Below, in pieces: positions 4,114 to 57,332 of a stretch of DNA of 64,000 bases (the stretch's first letter is position 1; each line of letters opens with the position of its first letter). Origin of the DNA: a phage; the sequence record PZ445551.1. One strand, written 5' to 3'. The translations under genes were made by a program, and so were the position numbers. The notes below the pieces were generated by a model. That model had not been told where the DNA came from, did not search any database, and was given only the letters and a program-made list of their open reading frames with translations.

Positions 4114-5061
4114 TTAGAAACAGTGCAGGAAGTTTCGACCATACTGCAAACCAATAGGAGCAAATGGGATATCATCATCGAAATCTTGAACAACAGGTTC
4201 TGGTTCTTTCGGTGCTGGCTCTTTCTTCTCTACTTTTTTAGTTTCTTTCTTAACTTCTTGTACTGGGGTAGACATTCCACGGATAGCAGCAGCTACTTTA
4301 TCAGACAAAGCAAGAACTTCACGAGCAGCTTCAATAATCTCTTCTGCCGTTACAGTTTTACCTGTATGATCACGACAAGCGTTAAGAATTGCGTGTCCAA
4401 CTGAAGCACCAAGATCATAGTCAGTCACATCAACGCCACGATCTTTAGCAATTTCTGCTTTCAGAGTAACAGTTGCAGATTGTACCACACCAGCCAAGTC
4501 GAAAGCATCACCTTTCACACCAGCACGTAGAAGCTCCAGAGCGCCGTTTACAGCGTGTCCTGTTTCAATCCCTACGGTATCACGTTTTTTGTAGTTAGGC
4601 TTGCTACCTTCGTTATTAGATGGCTTATTTCCACCTTTTGAAGAAGATTGTGCTTGCTGAACACCTTCTGTTGAAAGAATAGTGATTTTACCTTTAGAGG
4701 AATTGTAGTATGTTTTGCCATTCCATTCAGAAGGTTTAACATCCATAGTTAGTTCTACACCTTTTTCGATAGTAACCCACTTGTCACCATCTTTAACTTG
4801 CAGGTTTTCATGTTCTGGATGCAGCTTAACTTCACCTAGGCTAACCCAAACACCTTTATCATCAGCACTAGCACCTTTCTCTTTAATAAGCAGAGATGCT
4901 TTGTGAGTTGATTCAATTTTCTTATCTGGCTGACCTGCAACCTTAATATAAGAGACTTTCATTTCATCAAACTTATCCAGTTTGACATATTCAACGATAC
5001 CTTCAGCCCAGAATGCTTCTTTTTTAGTACGACGGTCGATTTCAGAATTAATTACTGGCAT
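4114..5061 (-). CDS. Putative DNA-binding protein carrying an E. coli SSB C-terminal-tip motif (DFDDDIPF) 15 residues from its end
   Basis: 315-aa ORF; Gly/Ser/Asn-rich linker; Lys/Glu-rich tail; exact DFDDDIPF octapeptide followed by APIGLQYGRNFLHCF (frame re-checked by hand). Confidence 0.65.
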   Translation of the reverse strand: MPVINSEIDRRTKKEAFWAEGIVEYVKLDKFDEMKVSYIKVAGQPDKKIESTHKASLLIKEKGASADDKGVWVSLGEVKLHPEHENLQVKDGDKWVTIEKGVELTMDVKPSEWNGKTYYNSSKGKITILSTEGVQQAQSSSKGGNKPSNNEGSKPNYKKRDTVGIETGHAVNGALELLRAGVKGDAFDLAGVVQSATVTLKAEIAKDRGVDVTDYDLGASVGHAILNACRDHTGKTVTAEEIIEAAREVLALSDKVAAAIRGMSTPVQEVKKETKKVEKKEPAPKEPEPVVQDFDDDIPFAPIGLQYGRNFLHCF

Positions 5062-5077
5062 AAATTCTCCTCTATAA

Positions 5078-5476
5078 TTACATTACTTTAACACAAAACT
5101 CTCGTAAAAGAGTAGCGTCAGTTTCTTCCAACAGGTATTTACCAAGACCAATACCAAATCCTATTTCACCACTTTCGAAATGGAGGATTTGTATCTTTTC
5201 TCCACCAAGGTTAATTACTTTTGCTTTTCCAGGATTATCCAAAACATCTCGTATTGTATCCTGTAGTAGCATTAGTTCACGTTTTGTGATAGTGGTTTCA
5301 GATATCTCTTTGTTTTCTACTCTCACTGTTAAACGGTTGTATCCACCAAAGAGACATAGTATTTGAATAAAAAAGGTATTATCTTGAGGTTCAACATCTT
5401 TTTTAGTTAGCTCAAGACGATTAGTTTCTCTACTATAGAACGTCTCGACTAAGATTTTAGAACGATTATCTGTCAT
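5078..5476 (-). CDS. Hypothetical protein
   Basis: 132-aa ORF in the replication-gene operon, tightly spaced with neighbours. Confidence 0.55.
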   Translation of the reverse strand: MTDNRSKILVETFYSRETNRLELTKKDVEPQDNTFFIQILCLFGGYNRLTVRVENKEISETTITKRELMLLQDTIRDVLDNPGKAKVINLGGEKIQILHFESGEIGFGIGLGKYLLEETDATLLREFCVKVM

Positions 5477-42653: not shown

Positions 42654-43826
42654 ATGACAGCACCAAAATCATGGGAACAATATAAAGAAGAATTAACACC
42701 CCTTGCTAAAAATCACAATATTCAAATCCTGGGTTATGTTGGTGAATGGAAAGGGAACAAGACTAAACTTAAGCTATCTTGCCCTAAACATGGAGAGTGG
42801 AACACCACGAACATTAATGATTTTAAGAAGGGACGTGGTTGTCCTATCTGTTCTGGTAAGAAGCCGTTAACATGGGAAACAGAATTGCCGATCTTGGAAG
42901 AGATAGCACAGAAGAGGGGGTATCAGGTGTTAGGGTACGTGGGAGAATGGAAAGGGAATAAAACAAAACTTGATTTGTTGTGTCATTGTGGTAATAAATG
43001 GGATACTACAAGTATTAACAATTTTAAACGTGGTAGCGGTTGTCCACAATGTAAGAGGGAGAGACAAACAATGTCCGACGATCAACATATTGCAGATTTC
43101 TTTTCTACAGGGGAATTTAAGGAAGGCACTATCTTCACCAATACAGGGAAACGTAACAAGCGTGATGCAGTATGGATGGTTGAGTGTCCTGTTTGCTCCC
43201 ATGATGAATATGTTCAAGCAGGTGTTTGTGATGGTAAATTTTACTCTGCAGGACATAACCTTAAACAAGGGTATATTCCGTGTCGTTGTGGGAACTATCA
43301 GTATACAGAAGACCAGATCACCTATAGGGTAAAAAAGGAAGTAGAAGGGAAAGGGTATGTCTGGGTAGATTGGATTACCAAACCCTCTTCTATAGGTAAG
43401 TTTAAATATCTTTGTCTTGTGCATGGTGAGCAGATAGGGAGTGCTCGTAATTTATTAAGCCTCGGTCAAGGTTGTCCACAGTGTGCTGGTCATAATCAAC
43501 AGCAATTATATATTAATATTGTTAAAGATAATGATATTATAGTTGCCCTTAAGTTTGGTATATCTAAAGATAGCGATAGACGATTAAACGGTCAAAATAG
43601 CCGTAATCTGTTTTTTATGGAGCGTATTTGTTTATATGATTTTAGCACAGTGAAACAATGTAGGGCTGCTGAAAGAGCTATAAAGAAAAAATTAAAAACT
43701 GGTATTTTAACGGCAAGAGAGTTGAAAGATGGTTATACAGAAACAGTAAGTGTTTCTGATTTGGAAAATCTTCAAAAAATTATTACACAATATGGTGGCA
43801 AATTAGTATACAGTAAGGAGATGTAA
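42654..43826 (+). CDS. Protein with three zinc-ribbon-type repeats (GCPxC) and a C-terminal T5orf172/GIY-YIG-like domain
   Basis: Tandem repeats LGYVGEWKGNKTKL...GCPICSG / ...GCPQCK / ...GCPQCAG; C-terminus IVALKFGISKDSDRRL resembles T5orf172. Confidence 0.55.
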   Translation: MTAPKSWEQYKEELTPLAKNHNIQILGYVGEWKGNKTKLKLSCPKHGEWNTTNINDFKKGRGCPICSGKKPLTWETELPILEEIAQKRGYQVLGYVGEWKGNKTKLDLLCHCGNKWDTTSINNFKRGSGCPQCKRERQTMSDDQHIADFFSTGEFKEGTIFTNTGKRNKRDAVWMVECPVCSHDEYVQAGVCDGKFYSAGHNLKQGYIPCRCGNYQYTEDQITYRVKKEVEGKGYVWVDWITKPSSIGKFKYLCLVHGEQIGSARNLLSLGQGCPQCAGHNQQQLYINIVKDNDIIVALKFGISKDSDRRLNGQNSRNLFFMERICLYDFSTVKQCRAAERAIKKKLKTGILTARELKDGYTETVSVSDLENLQKIITQYGGKLVYSKEM

Positions 43827-44378
43827 ATGCGGATTACTGATAAGTATGTGTTCTTCTTCTCGGCAAAAGATGAATTTAGCAACTGGTATCTATCATCTTT
43901 TATTGAACCTTTAGCTCCCAAGTATAATAATTCTATTACAAGTTCTGTTGAATTTACTTGTGTGGAACAATATATGATGTGGAGAAAAGCATGTTTGTTT
44001 TATGATTACAACATTGCATCTTCTATTTTAACCGGAGATCTAAGATATACAGGAGAAAAAGAACAAGCATATTATAAGCGACTAGGCAGATTAGTTAAAG
44101 ATTATGATGAAGATACCTGGACTTCTTTACGGGAGAAGATTGTCAAACGTGGTTTGTATCTTAAATACACACAAAATGAAGATCTCAAAAATAAACTTAT
44201 AGCCTACGCAGATAAGGAGTTCGTAGAGGCAAGCCCTTATGATTCTATTTATGGTATCAAAATGGGGATGTGGGATCGGGACGTGGAAAATAAGGATTGT
44301 TGGAAAGGACAAAATCTTTTAGGAAAATGGCATACAGACCTTGCTGTTTATCTAAAAGCACAATCTGATATTTCCTGA
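43827..44378 (+). CDS. NADAR-domain protein (YbiA-like; candidate DNA ADP-ribosyl-guanine hydrolase)
   Basis: Motifs FFFSAKDEFSNW, CVEQYMMWRKA, W-KGQNLLGKW agree with the NADAR/YbiA pattern; 183 aa. Confidence 0.55.
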   Translation: MRITDKYVFFFSAKDEFSNWYLSSFIEPLAPKYNNSITSSVEFTCVEQYMMWRKACLFYDYNIASSILTGDLRYTGEKEQAYYKRLGRLVKDYDEDTWTSLREKIVKRGLYLKYTQNEDLKNKLIAYADKEFVEASPYDSIYGIKMGMWDRDVENKDCWKGQNLLGKWHTDLAVYLKAQSDIS

Positions 44379-44596
44379 TATTTTGAAAATTTTTATTTTT
44401 ATAAAAAGGGGTGTGGGTTTCATGTACGGAAATTCACCCTCTGCACAGTATATCCAGAGTAAGTAGTATTCTATACCCTGTTAATAAAGTATTTAATTTG
44501 TTTGTTGGACTATGGTATCTGATCTTTAAAAGGCATACTATCTCTTAACTACTACTTATAACAGAACAGTAAAATCATTTTTATAAAAAGTACAAA

Positions 44597-44800
44597 ATTA
44601 TTTAAAGTTTTTACAGATTTTTGGGTACAAATTTTGAAAATGAAAAGTTCAAGTTTGGTCAAAATTATTTAAAGTTTTTGTACGTATTTCTATTCAGATT
44701 TTGAAAATGAAAACTTCAATTTTTTAAAAATTCCCCAGTTTATTTAAAGTTTTTTTGCCTTTTTCCGTAGAAAAATCAAAAATGAAAAGTTCAATTTCGT
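44597..44800. repeat. Three tandem direct repeats (about 65-75 bp units: TATTTAAAGTTTTT ... GAAAATGAAAAGTTCAA)
   Basis: Repeated unit read directly in an AT-rich non-coding stretch. Confidence 0.6.
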
Positions 44801-44817
44801 GTTTTTATAGGTGTGTT

Positions 44818-44928
44818 AATGAGAATCATTTTCGTTTGTAAATGAGAATCATTATCATTTAACTATGTAAGTGATAATCATTCTCAGTAAGAGAATGAGA
44901 ATCCTTAGCAAATGAGAATTTTCTCATT
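44818..44928. promoter_or_regulatory. Cluster of five AATGAGAATCATT / GATAATCATTCTC iteron-like sites (Fur-box-like), including the perfect 18-bp palindrome AATGAGAATTTTCTCATT
   Basis: Repeated half-sites resembling the GATAAT hexamer of the Fur box; non-coding. Confidence 0.45.
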
Positions 44929-45044
44929 TAGAGAATAACGCGCAGGGGTGGTGTTTGTCTCGCGCTCCCGTGTCCCCTCGCCATACAATAAGAATAGCAT
45001 AACCAACAACAAAAGCAAGCGATTATTTTTATCTTTACATTTCT

Positions 45045-45458
45045 TTACAAATTTATTTTAGACGAGCTACCGGCGATCAACCTTCCAACCAGTGCCCCCT
45101 GGTATGTTAGCCCCGCCTTTACGCCGTGGGGGTGGCGCTTCCTCTTCTGTATGTAAAACAGTATAAGCCCGATCCCTGGGCTTGTCAAGATTATTTTTTG
45201 TTTTCTTGCCAGGATAGGACACCTAACCAAAAATACATGTCGCCCCGCGCCCCCTGGTGGGATCTTGCTTTCCCCGCCGCCACTGCAAGCCCATAGATAA
45301 CCATTTGCGAACGTATCAAAATGATCTATTTCTTCCACCTTATGATCGCCCAGGTTGAGAACGGTTTCAACCTTTAAGCCCGTTGCGCTTGCTACCTGGT
45401 GCACCGTGCCGCCTTGCCAGCCTAATGAGTGCATGAGGTGTGAAGTAGTATTTGTCAT
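45045..45458 (-). CDS. Hypothetical ORF inside a GC-rich island (coding status uncertain)
   Basis: 137-aa ORF on the opposite strand from flanking genes; region is visibly GC-richer than its surroundings; no clear SD. Confidence 0.25.
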   Translation of the reverse strand: MTNTTSHLMHSLGWQGGTVHQVASATGLKVETVLNLGDHKVEEIDHFDTFANGYLWACSGGGESKIPPGGAGRHVFLVRCPILARKQKIILTSPGIGLILFYIQKRKRHPHGVKAGLTYQGALVGRLIAGSSSKINL

Positions 45459-45829
45459 GGTATCGCCCTTTCTTTGATGTGTGCCCTGGTTGGCGCGGTA
45501 GAAAGATAATAGCCCTTTCCTTTATAGATAGCAAGCAAAAAAGAAATGAAAAAAAGATTAAAAAAGGGGTTGACGTTCCTCACCTGGTAGCGTATTATTC
45601 ATCTTGTCGAGGGGGGCGAGGCACAACGACAATAAACAAAAGGAGGGCGCAATGTAGGACGGGCAAAGGTGAGGATCTCCACAATCCACCGTCACAATAA
45701 CATTACTTATAAAAGGTTGATAACGATGATCAAGAAAGAAAACAGCTTGACGGTTGGAACGATTAACGCTATCATTTTCGCCGTTCCATTTTGGGTTGTA
45801 GTAGCGGTTATTATCTTTTAAAAATATTC

Positions 45830-45887
45830 TTGACAACGTTTTTTAATCTGATAAGATGTATCACATAGGGCGGCAATAGTGCCGCTC
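45830..45887 (+). promoter_or_regulatory. sigma70-like promoter (TTGACA -35) + 5' GC stem-loop cassette
   Basis: TTGACA at 45830; stem-loop GGGCGGC-aatagt-GCCGCTC; ATG at 45910. Confidence 0.55.
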
Positions 45888-45909
45888 ATAACAGAAGAGA
45901 GAAATAATC

Positions 45910-46182
45910 ATGGCATCATATAGCGCATCAATGATCGTAACGGGCATCACTGGTAAACCTATGCGCGGTGGCGGATCTTTCGCTAACATCAATATTGATG
46001 GGCGTTTATCCCTGGACGCAGCGATCACAGTGGCACGGGAAACGTTTAAAAAAGAATGTAATTTCAATAAACAAGATTATCTCGGTTTCGCTATTGAAAA
46101 AACCGCGCGCTTTGTTGATTATAAAAGCCCGAAAATGGTTGATACTACACTAAAAGCGCAAGATGTAGCATTTTTGCTTTAA
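45910..46182 (+). CDS. Hypothetical early protein
   Basis: 90-aa ORF behind a promoter/stem-loop cassette. Confidence 0.6.
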   Translation: MASYSASMIVTGITGKPMRGGGSFANINIDGRLSLDAAITVARETFKKECNFNKQDYLGFAIEKTARFVDYKSPKMVDTTLKAQDVAFLL

Positions 46183-46185
46183 GGC

Positions 46186-46246
46186 TTGACACTGAAAAAT
46201 AATTTGGTAATATATACTACATAGGGCGGGGAAATGGTTTCCCGCC
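46186..46246 (+). promoter_or_regulatory. sigma70-like promoter + 5' GC stem-loop cassette
   Basis: TTGACA at 46186; stem-loop GGGCGGGG-aaatggttt-CCCGCC; ATG at 46269. Confidence 0.55.
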
Positions 46247-46268
46247 AAATCAAAGAAAGGGTAACACA

Positions 46269-46631
46269 ATGAGCAAGCAAATCAATACTATCATGTTAAA
46301 CCTGGTATCTTTCCGCGATGACGTGAAAAATCTTTCGCGTGATGCAGTGGATGCACGGATCGAAAGCTATCGCTCACAGATCGCAACATTACCGCTAAAA
46401 CGTGATCAACATGCCGCTAATATGATGCTTAATGCTATGCTTAAAAAGATGATTCAATGTGATCTTACCCTGGCTTATGAATATGCTGGCGATCTCTTTG
46501 TAACATACAATAAGCCCGTTCCAGGTATGAGCACAACCGAAGAATTGCATGCCTTAAATCTGCGACAAGATGCATGGGATAATATGCGCCGCGTTATGGT
46601 ATGGGTAGAAAGCGGCAAAATTTACGCATAA
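46269..46631 (+). CDS. Hypothetical early protein
   Basis: 120-aa ORF behind a cassette. Confidence 0.6.
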   Translation: MSKQINTIMLNLVSFRDDVKNLSRDAVDARIESYRSQIATLPLKRDQHAANMMLNAMLKKMIQCDLTLAYEYAGDLFVTYNKPVPGMSTTEELHALNLRQDAWDNMRRVMVWVESGKIYA

Positions 46632-46670
46632 AGGCTTTACATTACACGAAAACCTGATAAGCTATCTTAA

Positions 46671-46690
46671 AGCGGGAATAGTTCCCGCTT
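46671..46690 (+). promoter_or_regulatory. 5' GC stem-loop (GCGGGAA-tag-TTCCCGC); upstream promoter weak or unclear
   Basis: Same class of stem-loop as the other cassettes, about 18 nt before ATG 46708. Confidence 0.4.
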
Positions 46691-46707
46691 TCATAGGATA
46701 AAACTTT

Positions 46708-46854
46708 ATGAAACAATATGTAATGAGTATTCACACCAAAAACGGCGCTACTGTTACGACTCCGGCACGGTTTGCACTTGTAAACCGTTGCAAGAGACTA
46801 AAACGAGAGTTAAAAAATAACCGTGCAACGGGCTTTAAACGCTGGGGAGGATAA
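46708..46854 (+). CDS. Small basic protein (48 aa, below the ORF-track threshold)
   Basis: ATG 46708 directly after the stem-loop; Lys/Arg-rich; hand-translated. Confidence 0.45.
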   Translation: MKQYVMSIHTKNGATVTTPARFALVNRCKRLKRELKNNRATGFKRWGG

Positions 46855-46856
46855 TC

Positions 46857-47117
46857 TTGTTTTTTCTAAAAGTTTTTGATAATGTGATCGCTTTTGAACA
46901 TGCTACAACGTTCGACCTAGCGAGATACGCTATCAGGTTTAAAGATAATGTTTATCCCCGTGCTGGAGGCGGTTACACTATTTTTAATCATCGTAACGCT
47001 CAATTAACGGATATAACTAATCCAGATCCTGGAGTGTATCGCATAGGCTGGCTACCGTCAAAAGACGCGGCAAGCATGTTTAAGGTGTGTAAACTACTAA
47101 CAGAAGAGGCAAATTAG
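46857..47117 (+). CDS. Hypothetical early protein (TTG start)
   Basis: 86-aa ORF; SD GGGGAGG 5 nt upstream of TTG. Confidence 0.5.
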   Translation: MFFLKVFDNVIAFEHATTFDLARYAIRFKDNVYPRAGGGYTIFNHRNAQLTDITNPDPGVYRIGWLPSKDAASMFKVCKLLTEEAN

Positions 47118-55583: not shown

Positions 55584-55613
55584 ACCAGGGCGCACAAAGC
55601 GCCCTTTCTTTTT
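55584..55613 (+). terminator. Rho-independent terminator (AGGGCGC-acaaa-GCGCCCT + TTCTTTTT)
   Basis: Perfect stem with T-tract right after the 55188-55571 stop. Confidence 0.7.
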
Positions 55614-55817
55614 ACCTAAATAAAGATGATAGCTTTTACCTATCAAAAACGTTCACCGAAAAAAGTGAATAGATCGCGGTATCGAGCTAATCAAGGAGCA
55701 GATGAACAACCATACCATGAAGATCATAAGGCGCTTACAACGTGTTTTAGACCGCTTATTTTTAATTTCTCAATGTAACTATCTGGCAAAAACAGCCTTT
55801 TTCTTGTCTTTCCTCTT

Positions 55818-55893
55818 AAATGATAATCATTCTTATTTATAGCTGATTATTTATGCAATAAACTGAATAATGCAATAATGATAATCATTCTTA
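55818..55893. promoter_or_regulatory. Two Fur-box-like sites (AATGATAATCATTCTTA)
   Basis: Two copies, each matching most of the E. coli Fur consensus GATAATGATAATCATTATC. Confidence 0.45.
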
Positions 55894-56250
55894 ACTTATG
55901 ACCATCTAACCTATAAAATAATAAGTTATCTAACTAAATTAAAACTAATTATCTCACCTTTATTTATAACTTACTGTTACTATCTCATTGATAACCTTAT
56001 ATTAAACAACAATAACCAATATAAATCATTACTAAGCTAAATATAATCTATCTAACCTTTAAAACTATAACTATAATCTATCGAATTGTTGCACAAAGTA
56101 ACTATTAAATTGTTAGTAACATTACTAAATAATTAATATCCTATCTATTTATGATCTAATCTTTATCTTCCTATCTATTACCTAAATAATCATTTCATAC
56201 AGTAATCATTTCATACAATAATTATAACAAGAAATATAATTCGCAAGCGT

Positions 56251-56430
56251 ATCATTAGCAGCCTATGCCGGACACATAGGCGGCTAATAATAACGCAACT
56301 ACACACCCCACATAATAACCATCACCGATAGTTATTATTTGTGCTTATGTAGCTTGCAACAATTGCAAGCGCAACAATATACATGGTATATTGTATCCCT
56401 TACATTGTTGCGGTGCGTTATTATTAGCTA
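56251..56430. repeat. Large imperfect inverted repeat with nested palindromes (CCTATG/CATAGG; CTTGCAA-caa-TTGCAAG; GCTAATAATAACGCAAC / GTTGCG..GTTATTATTAGC)
   Basis: Inverted-repeat arms read directly in an AT-rich non-coding region; could form a cruciform or hairpin. Confidence 0.5.
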
Positions 56431-56756
56431 ATGTTTAGAACATTGGCTATAATATAAGCTAAGTAATAAGCTATGCAATAATAAACATGGTGAATAATGA
56501 CATTGATGATCATAATGCGCCACCTTCCAGGGGGCGCTATGTGAACACAAAGAAATCTTTCTTGTCAAGAAAAAATATTGCCATTATTGCGCAAAATTAT
56601 TTATATCTGAATAGATGATTTTTCATACTATTGCCCCATATAACATACCTCATTTGTTGAGCATAGTTATAGCCTATTTGTTGAGCCTACTTTCTTAAAA
56701 GCGCAATAAATCAGAATTATCTTGATTTTTAGTCTGTTTTATAGTATAGAAAGTAT

Positions 56757-56778
56757 GCAAATGATAATCATTATCAGC
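56757..56778. promoter_or_regulatory. Fur-box-like site containing AATGATAATCATTATC (16/16 match to consensus positions 4-19)
   Basis: Direct match to the canonical Fur box core. Confidence 0.5.
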
Positions 56779-56940
56779 TATCTTCCACGGGTAGCACTAT
56801 TTCACGCCAGATCATTTCATTTGGCAAGGTGTATATAGATGTTTAGACTTGCCAAGCCATTGATTTACTTAGAATTTATCTGTTTTGTTGTGAGTAGAGC
56901 CTTTCTTGCTCAGAAAATAATCAAAAGTCTTATAAGTCAT

Positions 56941-56976
56941 TGAATGATAATGCAAATGATAATTATTCTCATTGAT
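56941..56976. promoter_or_regulatory. Fur-box-like repeats (TGAATGATAATGCAAATGATAATTATTCTCATTGAT)
   Basis: Tandem GATAAT-type hexamers. Confidence 0.4.
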
Positions 56977-57332
56977 ATTTGAGGGGGACGGTCGGCAGAA
57001 ATCGGGGGGCGCTGAAAATCGCGTTAAGCACCTCTCGCAAGCGAGCAGTATTTTGCGGCAAGTTATTGATATTATTGGCTTTACGCTTATGAAAAGGGGG
57101 TGTGTCGAAATAAATCGGGTATACCGGAAAATTTTTGTGGCATAGATATTTATTTGTCTATATTATGTACAAAAGGGTGTGTTAAAAATATTAGGTATAT
57201 ATAGAATAATTGATAGGGAAATCCTATACTAATTCCTCCATTAATGATGTTTCTATGTTACTGTTCTTGTAACAGATGAAAAGACGCTGTATGATGTGTG
57301 GCATGAAACGTAAATTTATAAAGGAGTCTGAT

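What the first reader, a model, noticed from the sequence alone, without database searches (positions are those of the whole stretch)
44940..45700. GC-rich island with ambiguous, opposite-strand coding between the repeat region and the early-gene array
About 750 bp that are visibly GC-richer than the flanking AT-rich phage DNA, containing poly-C/G runs, a 137-residue minus-strand ORF without a clear RBS, and an SD-ATG-TAG start-stop element at 45641-45657. The composition suggests horizontally acquired DNA, possibly a small RNA or a moron.
Basis: seen in the sequence. Interest (0 to 1): 0.5.

Follow-up and report, generated by a model that had tools for sequence, protein, structure and literature searches.

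The report
Conserved pseudoknotted early phage small RNA
The GC-rich patch is not imported host DNA: it is made of an unannotated, widely conserved, pseudoknot-folded small RNA gene of rV5/phi92-like phages, a second promoter-plus-hairpin unit, and a real 88-residue gene that a one-base frameshift makes look like a 137-residue ORF.

Summary
Window 44940-45700 has 47.8% GC against 37.6% for the window, the highest of all 761-nt windows. The horizontal-transfer interpretation does not hold: E. coli genomes have no match, and the GC-rich non-coding blocks are the most conserved DNA of the locus across rV5/phi92-like phages.

The island has five parts:
- Block 1 (44940-44981) is the 5' hairpin of a leftward transcript from a conserved sigma-70 promoter.
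- "RNA-A" (45154->45053, minus strand) is a ~100-nt element with a near-consensus promoter directly upstream in all 31 first-set variants. It folds as stem-loop, H-type pseudoknot and second hairpin, with compensatory changes in 10 of 15 pairs (49 distinct sequences; 0/500 shuffles). It matches no Rfam family and no tRNA.
- A terminator-like hairpin sits inside RNA-A's promoter spacer.
- The 137-aa ORF is the conserved 88-aa Phi92_gp224 family gene, with a +1 insertion in a homopolymer run (45250-45254).
- A GC-rich leader hairpin follows the first rightward early promoter.

The SD-ATG-TAG is real but not conserved: phi92 reads ATG-CAG...TGA.

RNA-A is most likely an early, self-contained, trans-acting structured RNA. 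Its partner and function are unknown.

The parts
44940..44981 (-). Block 1: 5' stem-loop of a second leftward transcript ('RNA-B'), with the conserved apical sequence GAGACAAACACC at 44950-44961.
   Evidence: MFE hairpin GCGAGGGG.../...CCCCU(G)CGC. Homologous hairpin-forming sequence follows a promoter in 22 of 23 lineages. The RNAalifold consensus gives a 6-bp outer stem with many G-U pairs on this strand but only 1 covarying pair, so support for the structure is moderate.
44991..45018 (-). Promoter P_B (TTGCTT-N16-TATTCT) driving RNA-B.
   Evidence: It scores only 7/12 in the window. The equivalent site scores 8-10/12 in the other lineages, and 22 of 23 lineages keep a sigma-70-type promoter at this position, ending 5-10 nt (7 nt in 20 of them) before AT(A/G)GCG.
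45032..45051 (-). Tandem TTGTAAAGA motifs one helical turn apart, between RNA-A and the -35 of P_B. Possibly a protein-binding or UP-like site.
   Evidence: Conserved as TTTGTAAAGAnnTGTAAAGA in enterobacterial lineages and absent in Aeromonas phages. Function not tested.
45053..45154 (-). RNA-A, a conserved structured non-coding RNA. SL1 is at 45122-45137. The SL1 loop pairs with GGGG at 45111-45114 to form an H-type pseudoknot. SL2 is at 45086-45106. The near-invariant segment AAGGUNGAUCGCCGGUAG is at 45067-45084.
   Evidence: Covariance-model hit of 107.4 bits, E 3.6e-28, the only copy in the window. Covariation: 10 of 15 pairs have changes on both sides, 86.8% of cells are paired, 0/500 shuffles reach this, and slid controls score at most 0.052 against 0.224. 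No Rfam family and no tRNA or tmRNA.
45160..45188 (-). Promoter P_A (TTGACA-N17-TATACT) of RNA-A. Its spacer holds a GC-rich inverted repeat (45165-45183) that also scores as a terminator-like hairpin for the upstream gp224 gene. Together they form a composite terminator/promoter.
   Evidence: 11/12 match, the best promoter in the region, and the hairpin is flagged in the same scan. A promoter of 9-12/12 with 17-18 nt spacing ends 3-7 nt before the model start in 31 of 31 variants, against a mean of 6.2/12 on the antisense side. The spacer hairpin is kept in many lineages with different sequences (by eye).
45191..45458 (-). Phi92_gp224-family gene (88 aa in relatives), disrupted here by a +1 insertion in the run C5/G5 at 45250-45254. 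The frameshifted reading gives the 137-aa ORF 45045-45458.
   Evidence: phrog_19316 at E 3.3e-44, matching residues 1-76 only. Alignment with phi92 and inny shows one extra G. Five relatives have G4 and the window has G5. The conserved C-terminus RGDMYFWLGVLSWQENKK* is encoded at 45247-45191 in the other frame. 18 homologue clusters down to 45% identity. The model is all-alpha with pLDDT 94 and has no PDB match.
45506..45534 (-). Promoter of the gp224 gene (TTGCTA-N17-TATTAT), divergent from the rightward early promoter.
   Evidence: Consensus scan, 9/12.
45570..45598 (+). First rightward early promoter (TTGACG-N17-TATTAT).
   Evidence: Consensus scan, 10/12. Conserved in phi92, inny and L018.
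45606..45630 (+). GC-rich 5' leader hairpin (GTCG-aggggggcgaggcacaa-CGAC) of the rightward early transcript. It contains the G6 run.
   Evidence: Read from the sequence. The next early promoters have the same architecture, with ACATAGGGCGG...CCGCC hairpins.
45641..45657 (+). SD (AAGGAGG) plus ATG-TAG 'start-stop', a lineage variant of a 6-codon mini-ORF (MQDGQR*).
   Evidence: ATG-TAG in the window, inny, Paula, L028 and L114. phi92 has ATG-CAG...TGA. L018 has ATG-CAA...TGA with a weakened SD.
45726..45821 (+). Small hydrophobic ORF (31 aa, MIKKENSLTVGTINAIIFAVPFWVVVAVIIF), probably the first real gene of the rightward early transcript.
   Evidence: Translation. The reading frame and hydrophobic character are kept, with conservative substitutions, in inny, phi92 and L018.

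Best explanation
The island is a mosaic of functional elements that are GC-rich because they fold or code. It is not foreign DNA.

Its core is RNA-A (45154->45053, minus strand), a small non-coding RNA gene. Host sigma-70 RNA polymerase starts at a near-consensus promoter (45188->45160) and makes a ~100-nt RNA. The RNA folds into:
- a stem-loop (SL1);
- an H-type pseudoknot, formed when the C-rich SL1 loop pairs with a G-run a few bases downstream;
- a second hairpin (SL2) of variable length with a bulged base, capped in various relatives by GNRA-type or UUCG tetraloops;
- a nearly invariant 3' segment, AAGGUNGAUCGCCGGUAG.

Shown here: conservation, promoter, strand and fold.

Inferred: RNA-A is expressed early and acts in trans as a self-contained folded RNA. 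It would work by being bound, by a host or phage protein or another macromolecule, at its invariant junction and 3' segment, rather than as a linear antisense RNA. I put this mode of action at about 0.45. The partner and the biological role are unknown.

Around RNA-A lie:
- a second promoter plus 5' hairpin (RNA-B, block 1) that reads into Fur-box-like palindromes and AT-rich repeats;
- the gp224-family 88-aa gene, which has its own promoter, a terminator-like hairpin embedded in RNA-A's promoter, and in this genome a one-base frameshift;
- the hairpin leader of the first rightward early transcript, which carries a non-conserved mini-ORF that here happens to be ATG-TAG.

The confidence of 0.75 refers to the anatomy: a structured RNA gene, a frameshifted conserved gene and leader hairpins, and not horizontal transfer.
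For: Identity of the window: Escherichia phage VivaForever, a phi92-like Justusliebigvirus.

Conservation:
- The 125 nt at 45032-45157 are the only part of the locus alignable (72-87% identity) with Klebsiella, Cronobacter, Salmonella, Erwinia, Pectobacterium and Enterobacter phages of another subfamily.
- nhmmer and the covariance model find the element in every related locus fetched. There were 31 distinct variants at first and 49 after the metagenome scan, including Aeromonas phages.

Fold:
- 10 of 15 pairs have changes on both sides, in 55 cells. 0/500 shuffles reach this, and slid controls are far lower.
- The pseudoknot pairing switches between CCCC/GGGG, CCAA/UUGG, CCAU/AUGG and CCAG/CUGG.
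- SL1 changes from CGCC/GGCG to GGAC/GUCU in Aeromonas phages.
- SL2 is capped by GGAG, GAAG, GAAA, GCAA or UUCG in different lineages.

Strand:
- A sigma-70 promoter of 9-12/12 lies directly upstream in 31 of 31 variants.
- There are 6 G-U cells against 1 A-C cell.

Autonomy: in Aeromonas phages RNA-A is followed within about 30-45 nt by a GC hairpin with a U-rich tail and then by a convergent ORF, with no repeats or block 1.

Not coding: the ORF over it is a frameshift artefact.

Not from the host: no match in E. coli genomes. Among reference bacterial genomes, the only true hit is one 4-kb MAG contig.
Against: - No expression data exist for any of these phages in the literature I could search. 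Transcription, RNA ends and abundance are therefore inferred from sequence alone.
- In the window and the other enterobacterial phages there is no intrinsic terminator after RNA-A. The transcript may run on through P_B and block 1 into the repeats.
- The single-sequence folding energy is no better than that of shuffled sequence, z about 0. The case for structure rests entirely on covariation.
- About 45% of distinct sequences carry a mismatch in SL2, and the fourth pseudoknot pair is unpaired in the majority type.
- Three further helices I proposed (P0, J3, H3) are compatible but show no covariation above shuffles.
- The alignment used for counting was fitted to SL1 and SL2 by the model, though not to the pseudoknot.
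- No partner or target was found. No complementary site occurs elsewhere in the window.
Confidence: 0.75

Rival explanations
1. RNA-A and RNA-B are cis-acting parts of a transcription-activated replication origin. Two tandem early promoters fire leftward into Fur-box-like palindromes and AT-rich iteron-like repeats. The folded 5' parts of the transcripts would help form or stabilise an R-loop or primer, as in ColE1 RNA II, the T7 primary origin or T4 oriF/oriG.
For: - In all enterobacterial lineages both promoters point into a long ORF-free region. That region holds palindromes and lineage-specific direct repeats, three of about 70 bp at 44577-44797 in the window.
- There is no terminator between RNA-A and that region.
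- The origin of rV5-like phages is unknown, and GC skew did not reveal it.
- Some GenBank records start inside these repeats.
Against: - In Aeromonas phages RNA-A stands alone. It is followed by a terminator-like hairpin and a convergent gene, without block 1, palindromes or repeats. RNA-A's conserved function therefore cannot depend on reading into an origin.
- The cumulative GC skew of the window turns at about 40 kb, where gene orientation flips, not here.
- No initiator-binding or DnaA-box evidence was obtained.
Confidence: 0.2
2. The conserved blocks act as DNA, not RNA. They could be a recognition site for a phage or host protein (packaging, replication, methylation or SeqA at GATC), or hairpins extruded in single-stranded DNA.
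For: - The invariant segment contains GATC and CCGG, and the locus sits in a large regulatory intergenic region.
- Base-pair covariation would also be seen for a single-stranded DNA fold.
- Homing endonuclease genes have inserted right next to it. That shows its DNA sequence is a conserved target.
Against: - A promoter at a fixed distance in 31 of 31 variants, despite divergent promoter sequences.
- RNA-type tetraloops (GNRA, UUCG) cap SL2.
- G-U wobble pairs occur on one strand only: 6 against 1 for RNA-A, and many for block 1.
- A pseudoknot with four covarying versions is not expected of a duplex protein-binding site.
Confidence: 0.07
3. This is the first reader's view: the island is horizontally acquired GC-rich DNA, a moron or host-derived fragment.
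For: - The gp224 cassette has its own promoter and a terminator-like hairpin.
- Its GC3 is about 0.50, against 0.28-0.49 for five neighbouring genes.
- Its homologues were found only in phi92/phAPEC8-like phages and Serratia phage Kashira.
- PVP-SE1-like phages carry an unrelated small gene at the same position.
Against: - No match in 5,426 E. coli genomes for the whole 761 nt or for RNA-A.
- The non-coding GC-rich blocks are older than the split of the subfamilies.
- The GC excess of blocks 1 and 2 is explained by helices.
Confidence: 0.1
4. The 137-aa minus-strand ORF is a genuine protein, and the conservation of 45053-45154 reflects coding constraint.
For: - The ORF is open in this genome.
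- The GenBank record annotates most of it as a CDS.
Against: - All five close relatives checked have one G fewer and stop at 88 aa.
- 18 homologue clusters are mostly 86-93 aa with a conserved FWLGV C-terminus, which the 137-aa reading loses.
- The PHROG match ends at residue 76.
- The conserved C-terminus is still encoded out of frame.
- In distant phages the element is conserved with indels and without any ORF.
Confidence: 0.03

Closest known systems
Phage-encoded early small RNAs made by host RNA polymerase (for example lambda OOP and the T4 band C/D RNAs; from my own knowledge)
   Same: A short non-coding transcript from a strong sigma-70 promoter in the early region. In the Aeromonas relatives it has its own terminator.
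   Different: No sequence or Rfam relationship. RNA-A has a compact pseudoknot and junction core rather than an antisense relationship to a known gene. No complementary target was found in the window.
phi29 packaging RNA (pRNA; from my own knowledge)
   Same: An early-promoter-driven phage RNA of about 120 nt. Two 4-nt segments covary strictly among relatives, as do the loop-loop pairs of pRNA. Covariation cannot tell intramolecular pairing from intermolecular pairing.
   Different: The pRNA loops belong to two hairpins and pair between molecules to build a ring on the phi29-type connector. Here the second strand is a linker segment. There is no sequence similarity. The hosts are large myoviruses, which as far as I know package with a terminase and need no RNA.
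HK022 put RNA (cis-acting antiterminator RNA; from my own knowledge)
   Same: A structured RNA with no ORF, transcribed from an early sigma-70 promoter.
   Different: put is two plain stem-loops and needs downstream terminators and genes to act on. RNA-A is pseudoknotted. It is followed by non-coding DNA and convergent genes, and in Aeromonas phages by a terminator and a convergent ORF.
ColE1 RNA II, T7 primary origin and T4 oriF/oriG (origin transcripts; from my own knowledge)
   Same: Promoters are oriented into an AT-rich repeat region, and a folded 5' RNA domain precedes it.
   Different: No origin has been mapped in these phages. RNA-A occurs without any such region in Aeromonas phages.
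PeSL composite promoter-terminator cassettes of T4-like phages (PMC4122927)
   Same: P_A combines an early sigma-70 promoter with a GC-rich stem-loop that can terminate the upstream gene. The rightward early genes are each preceded by a promoter-plus-hairpin cassette repeated through the region.
   Different: It belongs to a different phage group and there is no sequence relationship. A role in recombination or modular shuffling was not tested here, although the gp224 slot is variable and homing endonuclease genes have inserted nearby.
Start-stop mini-ORFs of E. coli (ATG immediately followed by a stop; from my own knowledge of ribosome-profiling work)
   Same: A strong SD, ATG and TAG at 45641-45657.
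   Different: The stop is CAG or CAA in phi92 and L018, giving a 6-codon ORF. The start-stop state is therefore not under visible selection.

Membership tests
Any Rfam 15 RNA family | A covariance-model match at or near the gathering score | tested here: not met
   Window 43500-47000 at E<=1 gave only an unrelated weak hit at 45858-45904, and none on RNA-A or block 1. Nine diverse homologous loci at E<=1 gave no hit on the element.
tRNA / tmRNA | Cloverleaf or tmRNA detected by ARAGORN | tested here: not met
   0 genes in the whole window. The tRNA features over the homologous region in OY978796 lie on palindromes and promoters and look misplaced.
H-type pseudoknotted RNA | A hairpin loop pairs with a downstream single strand, supported by compensatory changes | tested here: met
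   Helix 2 (loop to downstream G-run): 2 of 4 pairs have changes on both sides, with CG/AU at the third pair and AU/UA/GC at the fourth. 43 of 49 sequences have at least 4 contiguous pairs, in 7 sequence versions.
Independent sRNA gene | Own promoter immediately upstream | tested here: met
   31 of 31 variants score 9-12/12 against the sigma-70 consensus, ending 3-7 nt before the model start. The window scores 11/12.
Independent sRNA gene | Own intrinsic terminator | tested here: inconclusive
   A terminator-like hairpin with a U-rich tail follows in Aeromonas phages. None was found after RNA-A in the window.
Independent sRNA gene | A detectable transcript of defined length | not testable with these tools
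   No transcriptome of these phages was found in the searchable literature.
Moron (autonomous promoter-gene-terminator insert) | Own promoter and terminator, atypical composition, patchy distribution | tested here: met
   Met for the gp224 cassette only: promoter at 45506-45534, hairpin at 45165-45183, GC3 0.50, and an unrelated gene in the same slot in PVP-SE1. Not met for RNA-A or block 1, which are ancestral.
Host-derived horizontally transferred DNA | Similarity to host chromosomes | tested here: not met
   No blastn match for 44940-45700 (E<=0.01) or for RNA-A (E<=10) in 5,426 complete E. coli genomes.
Phi92_gp224 protein family (phrog_19316) | Full-length homology, about 88 aa with a conserved FWLGV C-terminus | tested here: met
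   Residues 1-76 match at E 3.3e-44. The C-terminal 18 residues are encoded in the adjacent frame. One extra G separates the frames.
Functional start-stop ORF | ATG-stop conserved among relatives | tested here: not met
   TAG in 5 loci plus the window's own record, and CAG or CAA in 2.
Fur box (flanking palindromes, outside the given coordinates) | Match to the 19-bp consensus GATAATGATAATCATTATC (consensus from my own knowledge) | tested here: met
   5 matches with at most 3 mismatches in the window against 0.05 expected. Two of them are at 44815-44856. Binding by Fur is not testable here.
phi29-type pRNA | Intermolecular loop-loop pairing, and association with a phi29-like packaging motor | not testable with these tools
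   Covariation of two 4-nt segments exists, but it cannot distinguish intramolecular from intermolecular pairing. There is no sequence or Rfam similarity.

The most novel reading that the evidence does not exclude
RNA-A is the founding member of a new class of functional phage RNA. Its invariant junction core either (a) catalyses self-cleavage, making it a new small ribozyme, or (b) forms an RNP or decoy that captures a conserved host factor or defence protein early in infection. Together with RNA-B and the Fur-box-like palindromes, it may couple early phage development or replication to the host's iron status. The evidence fits a compact pseudoknot plus junction fold with about 17 invariant nucleotides, variable peripheral hairpins with stable tetraloops, universal presence in a broad-host-range phage group, and repeated targeting by homing endonucleases. 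None of this excludes catalysis or specific protein capture.
Probability: 0.12. Interest if true: 0.85.

Novelty: new variant of a known kind. Interest (0 to 1): 0.62.

Why it matters
rV5-, phi92- and PVP-SE1-like myoviruses are among the broadest-host-range coliphages and enterobacterial phages, and they are used in therapy cocktails. Their early programme and replication origin are essentially unknown.

A small RNA that has its own consensus promoter in every copy examined, and that is more conserved than almost any protein gene of the early region from Escherichia to Aeromonas phages, is likely to do something central. It is currently invisible in annotations. In this genome it is buried under a false 129-aa CDS, and in another record it lies under misplaced tRNA features.

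It gives a concrete, testable entry point: delete it, mutate the pseudoknot, or pull it down. It also gives a new covariance model for annotating these genomes.

There is a practical lesson as well. The apparent 'ambiguous coding' comes from a homopolymer frameshift, which should be checked by resequencing.

Tried and rejected
- **Rfam** at permissive thresholds, on the window and on nine homologues: nothing.
- **ARAGORN:** nothing.
- **Single-sequence folding:** z about 0 on both strands for RNA-A and block 1, so thermodynamics alone is uninformative.
- **RNAalifold on the MAFFT alignment:** it gave a poor structure that pairs CGGC with GCCG. I rejected it because the Aeromonas sequences break that pairing while compensating in SL1.
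- **Extra helices P0 (5'/3' closing), J3 and H3:** compatible at 72-98% paired, but no covariation beyond shuffles. I kept them only as possibilities.
- **HDV-like ribozyme, hammerhead, T-loop or tRNA-like mimicry, DnaA box, and SD / 16S 3'-end complementarity** of AAGGUGGAUC: considered by eye and dropped. The defining cores or continuous pairing are not conserved.
- **Search for a bacterial homologue:** 24 exact 17-mer hits in 185,579 genomes, but only one, a 4-kb MAG contig, is a true covariance-model hit.
- **Search for a complementary target in the window:** none.
- **E. coli genomes:** no match.
- **Literature** on sRNAs, origins or Fur boxes in these phages: nothing relevant, beyond the rV5 paper's unexplained 'non-coding' box and its inconclusive skew analysis.
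- **One failed call:** PHROG with a mis-set ORF coordinate.
Full report
**Identity and observation.** The window is Escherichia phage VivaForever (PP925843.1, reverse strand), a phi92-like Justusliebigvirus. 146 phage records match the locus by megablast.

Region 44940-45700 is 47.8% GC against 37.6% for the window, the most extreme of all 761-nt windows (z about 4), and 45061-45460 is the richest 400-nt stretch in 64 kb. The C/G runs, the 137-aa minus ORF (45045-45458) and AAGGAGG-N4-ATG-TAG (45641-45657) are all there.

The GC excess is patchy:

| Part | Coordinates | GC |
|---|---|---|
| Block 1 | 44940-44983 | 70.5% |
| Spacer | 44984-45052 | 24.6% |
| Conserved element (RNA-A) | 45053-45154 | 55.9% |
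| gp224 gene | 45191-45458 | 49.3% |
| Rightward leader | 45570-45700 | 50.4% |

**The ORF.**
- phi92, inny and Paula annotate a 267-nt (88-aa) gene here, Phi92_gp224.
- The window's protein matches phrog_19316 at E 3.3e-44, but only over residues 1-76.
- A DNA alignment shows a single extra G in a G-run, which on the plus strand is C5 at 45250-45254.
- Five relatives have four Gs and the window has five.
- The conserved C-terminus RGDMYFWLGVLSWQENKK* is still encoded at 45247-45191 in the neighbouring frame.
- The family has 18 clusters down to 45% identity, most of them 86-93 aa, with an invariant FW.G near the C-terminus.

The 137-aa ORF is therefore a frameshift read-through that runs over a promoter and a non-coding RNA. 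The GenBank record nevertheless annotates it as a CDS.

The protein has no Pfam family. Its model is a confident all-alpha fold (pLDDT 94) with no structural neighbour. The gene has its own promoter (45534->45506) and a terminator-like hairpin (45183->45165). Its GC3 is about 0.50. PVP-SE1-like phages carry an unrelated small gene in the same slot. This cassette, and only this, is moron-like.

**The conserved non-coding core.** A sensitive blastn search found 240 phage records. In the distant ones (Klebsiella, Cronobacter, Salmonella, Erwinia, Pectobacterium, Enterobacter and Raoultella phages of Vequintavirinae), only window 45032-45157 aligns, sometimes with block 1 as well, at 72-87% identity. 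It mostly falls in unannotated DNA.

I collected the region from GenBank records, IMG/VR and metagenomes. nhmmer and then a covariance model found the element in every related locus. It occurs once in the window, at 45053-45154 on the minus strand, with 107.4 bits. Aeromonas phages 2L372D and 4L372D carry it too. Pectobacterium phage P7 and Raoultella phage Ro1 carry two diverged copies. In Ro1 the copies flank an HNH homing endonuclease gene.

**Strand and transcription.** In all 31 first-set variants, a sigma-70-type promoter scoring 9-12 of 12, with 17-18 nt spacing, ends 3-7 nt before the element on the window's minus sense. This holds even though the hexamers and spacers differ between lineages. 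The mean is 9.8 against 6.2 on the other side. The window's promoter, TTGACA-N17-TATACT at 45188->45160, is the best promoter match in the region. Wobble pairs favour the same strand, with 6 G-U cells against 1 A-C cell.

**Structure.** On the model-based alignment of 49 distinct sequences I tested three helices:
- SL1, 4 bp;
- a 4-bp pseudoknot between the SL1 loop and the G-run that follows;
- SL2, 7 bp with a bulged base.

The counts are 86.8% of cells paired, 10 of 15 pairs with changes on both sides (55 cells), and a covariation score of 0.224. Shuffles give 0.080±0.009 (0/500 reach the observed value) and slid partners give at most 0.052 (the 31-sequence set gave the same picture).

The pseudoknot was not part of the model used for aligning. 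It switches between CCCC/GGGG, CCAA/UUGG, CCAU/AUGG and CCAG/CUGG. SL1 changes from CGCC/GGCG to GGAC/GUCU in Aeromonas phages. SL2 varies in length and ends in GGAG, GAAG, GAAA, GCAA or UUCG loops, which is typical of selection on RNA.

The 3' segment AAGGUNGAUCGCCGGUAG is nearly invariant. Three more helices that would close the molecule into a junction are compatible but not supported by covariation. Folding energy of the single sequence is unremarkable. Rfam 15 and ARAGORN find nothing.

**Autonomy and origin.** In Aeromonas phages the element is followed by a GC hairpin with a U-rich tail and then by a convergent ORF. There is no block 1 and there are no repeats. RNA-A is therefore a self-contained unit.

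It is not host-derived. E. coli genomes have no match to it or to the whole island. Among 24 exact 17-mer hits in reference bacterial genomes, only one small MAG contig is a true hit.

**Block 1 and the left flank.** In 22 of 23 enterobacterial lineages a second minus-strand promoter ends 5-10 nt (7 nt in 20 of them) before AT(A/G)GCG. In the window it is TTGCTT-N16-TATTCT at 45018->44991, a weak 7/12. The transcript begins with a long hairpin (44981->44940) that has a conserved apical GAGACAAACACC. The consensus fold has many G-U pairs on this strand but little covariation, so I regard it as a probable 5' stem-loop like those at the other early promoters.

It is followed at once by palindromes of the type AATGAGAATCATTCTCATT. 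These match the E. coli Fur-box consensus (recalled from my own knowledge) far more often than chance: 5 hits at no more than 3 mismatches against 0.05 expected. Then come three AT-rich direct repeats of about 70 bp. This arrangement keeps alive the rival idea that the two promoters feed a transcription-activated origin. However, RNA-A's independence in Aeromonas phages argues that its own function is not tied to that.

**The right flank.** A divergent promoter pair (45534->45506 and 45570-45598) separates gp224 from the rightward early array. The rightward transcript starts with a GC-rich hairpin (45606-45630, containing the G6 run), then the SD-ATG-TAG, then a conserved 31-aa hydrophobic ORF (45726-45821).

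The start-stop is ATG-TAG in the window, inny, Paula and two metagenomic relatives. It is ATG-CAG/CAA-GAC-GGG-CAA-AGG-TGA in phi92 and L018, and the latter also has a weakened SD. It is a variant of a 6-codon mini-ORF, with no sign of selection for the start-stop state.

**Comparison with known systems.** P_A, with a terminator-like hairpin inside its spacer, together with the repeated promoter-hairpin cassettes to the right, resembles the composite promoter/terminator PeSL motifs of T4-like phages (PMC4122927). It shares no sequence with them.

RNA-A belongs to the general kind 'phage-encoded early small RNA', but to no described family. Its compact pseudoknot and junction core, with variable peripheral hairpins, looks more like a protein-binding, ligand-binding or catalytic RNA than like an antisense regulator.

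The rV5 genome paper shows an unexplained 'non-coding' box and could not locate an origin. I found no paper describing this RNA, but the searchable library is incomplete.

**Verdict.**
- The horizontal-transfer reading is rejected, except for the gp224 cassette.
- The ORF ambiguity is resolved as a frameshift.
- The interesting content is an unannotated, deeply conserved, pseudoknotted early RNA of unknown function, next to a second promoter-hairpin unit and Fur-box-like sites.
- Transcription and function remain to be shown experimentally.

Noticed in passing
window 44815-44935 and 55819-56973: There are two clusters of palindromes, AATGAGAATCATTCTCATT and variants, that fit the E. coli Fur-box consensus. 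Hits at no more than 3 mismatches number 5 against 0.05 expected, and the phage palindrome itself gives 9 against 0.13. The first cluster directly follows the block 1 hairpin and is conserved in 22 of 23 enterobacterial rV5-like lineages. The second lies in a separate ORF-free region. Fur boxes in a virulent phage would be unusual. Binding was not tested.
   Followed up: partly
window 55600-57200: A ~1.6-kb AT-rich stretch (GC about 0.29) has no ORF of 50 aa or more apart from two marginal ones, and the GC skew reverses locally. It contains four of the Fur-box-like sites. It may correspond to the unexplained 'non-coding' box in the published rV5 map.
   Followed up: no
window 44577-44797: Three AT-rich direct repeats of about 70 bp, 71-72% identical. 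Different, lineage-specific repeats occupy the same position in PVP-SE1, CR9, Hena1 and EC152. They look like iterons and are a candidate replication origin.
   Followed up: partly
window 45726-45821 (+): An unannotated 31-codon ORF encodes a hydrophobic peptide, MIKKENSLTVGTINAIIFAVPFWVVVAVIIF. inny, phi92 and L018 keep it with conservative substitutions. It is probably a small membrane protein.
   Followed up: partly
window 45830-45904, 46186-46250, ~49183, ~52461, ~52856: Repeated early cassettes: a near-consensus sigma-70 promoter followed by an ACATAGGGCGG...CCGCC 5' hairpin in front of each small early gene. They resemble the PeSL promoter/terminator cassettes of T4-like phages.
   Followed up: partly
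L035 (Raoultella phage Ro1) 448-1296; L007 (Pectobacterium phage P7) 2613-2909; L014 ~4900-5130: In Ro1, an HNH homing endonuclease gene is inserted immediately after RNA-A, with a second, diverged RNA-A copy behind it. P7 has the same two-copy arrangement without the endonuclease. In L014 an endonuclease-like ORF interrupts the block 1 hairpin. The conserved RNA genes seem to be homing targets.
   Followed up: partly
window 42654-43826 and 43827-44378 (+): The two genes left of the repeats encode a CapR-homology / T5orf172 (GIY-YIG-like endonuclease family) protein and a NADAR-domain protein. The latter family reverses ADP-ribosylation and has been linked to anti-DarT counter-defence.
   Followed up: no
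GenBank PP925843.1 98767-99156; OY978796.1 10349-11044: Annotation problems. VivaForever annotates the frameshifted ORF over RNA-A, plus several tiny ORFs across the non-coding region. In Klebsiella phage K45PH128C2, three 'tRNA' features sit on Fur-like palindromes, block 1 and an early promoter, and appear to be misplaced.
   Followed up: partly
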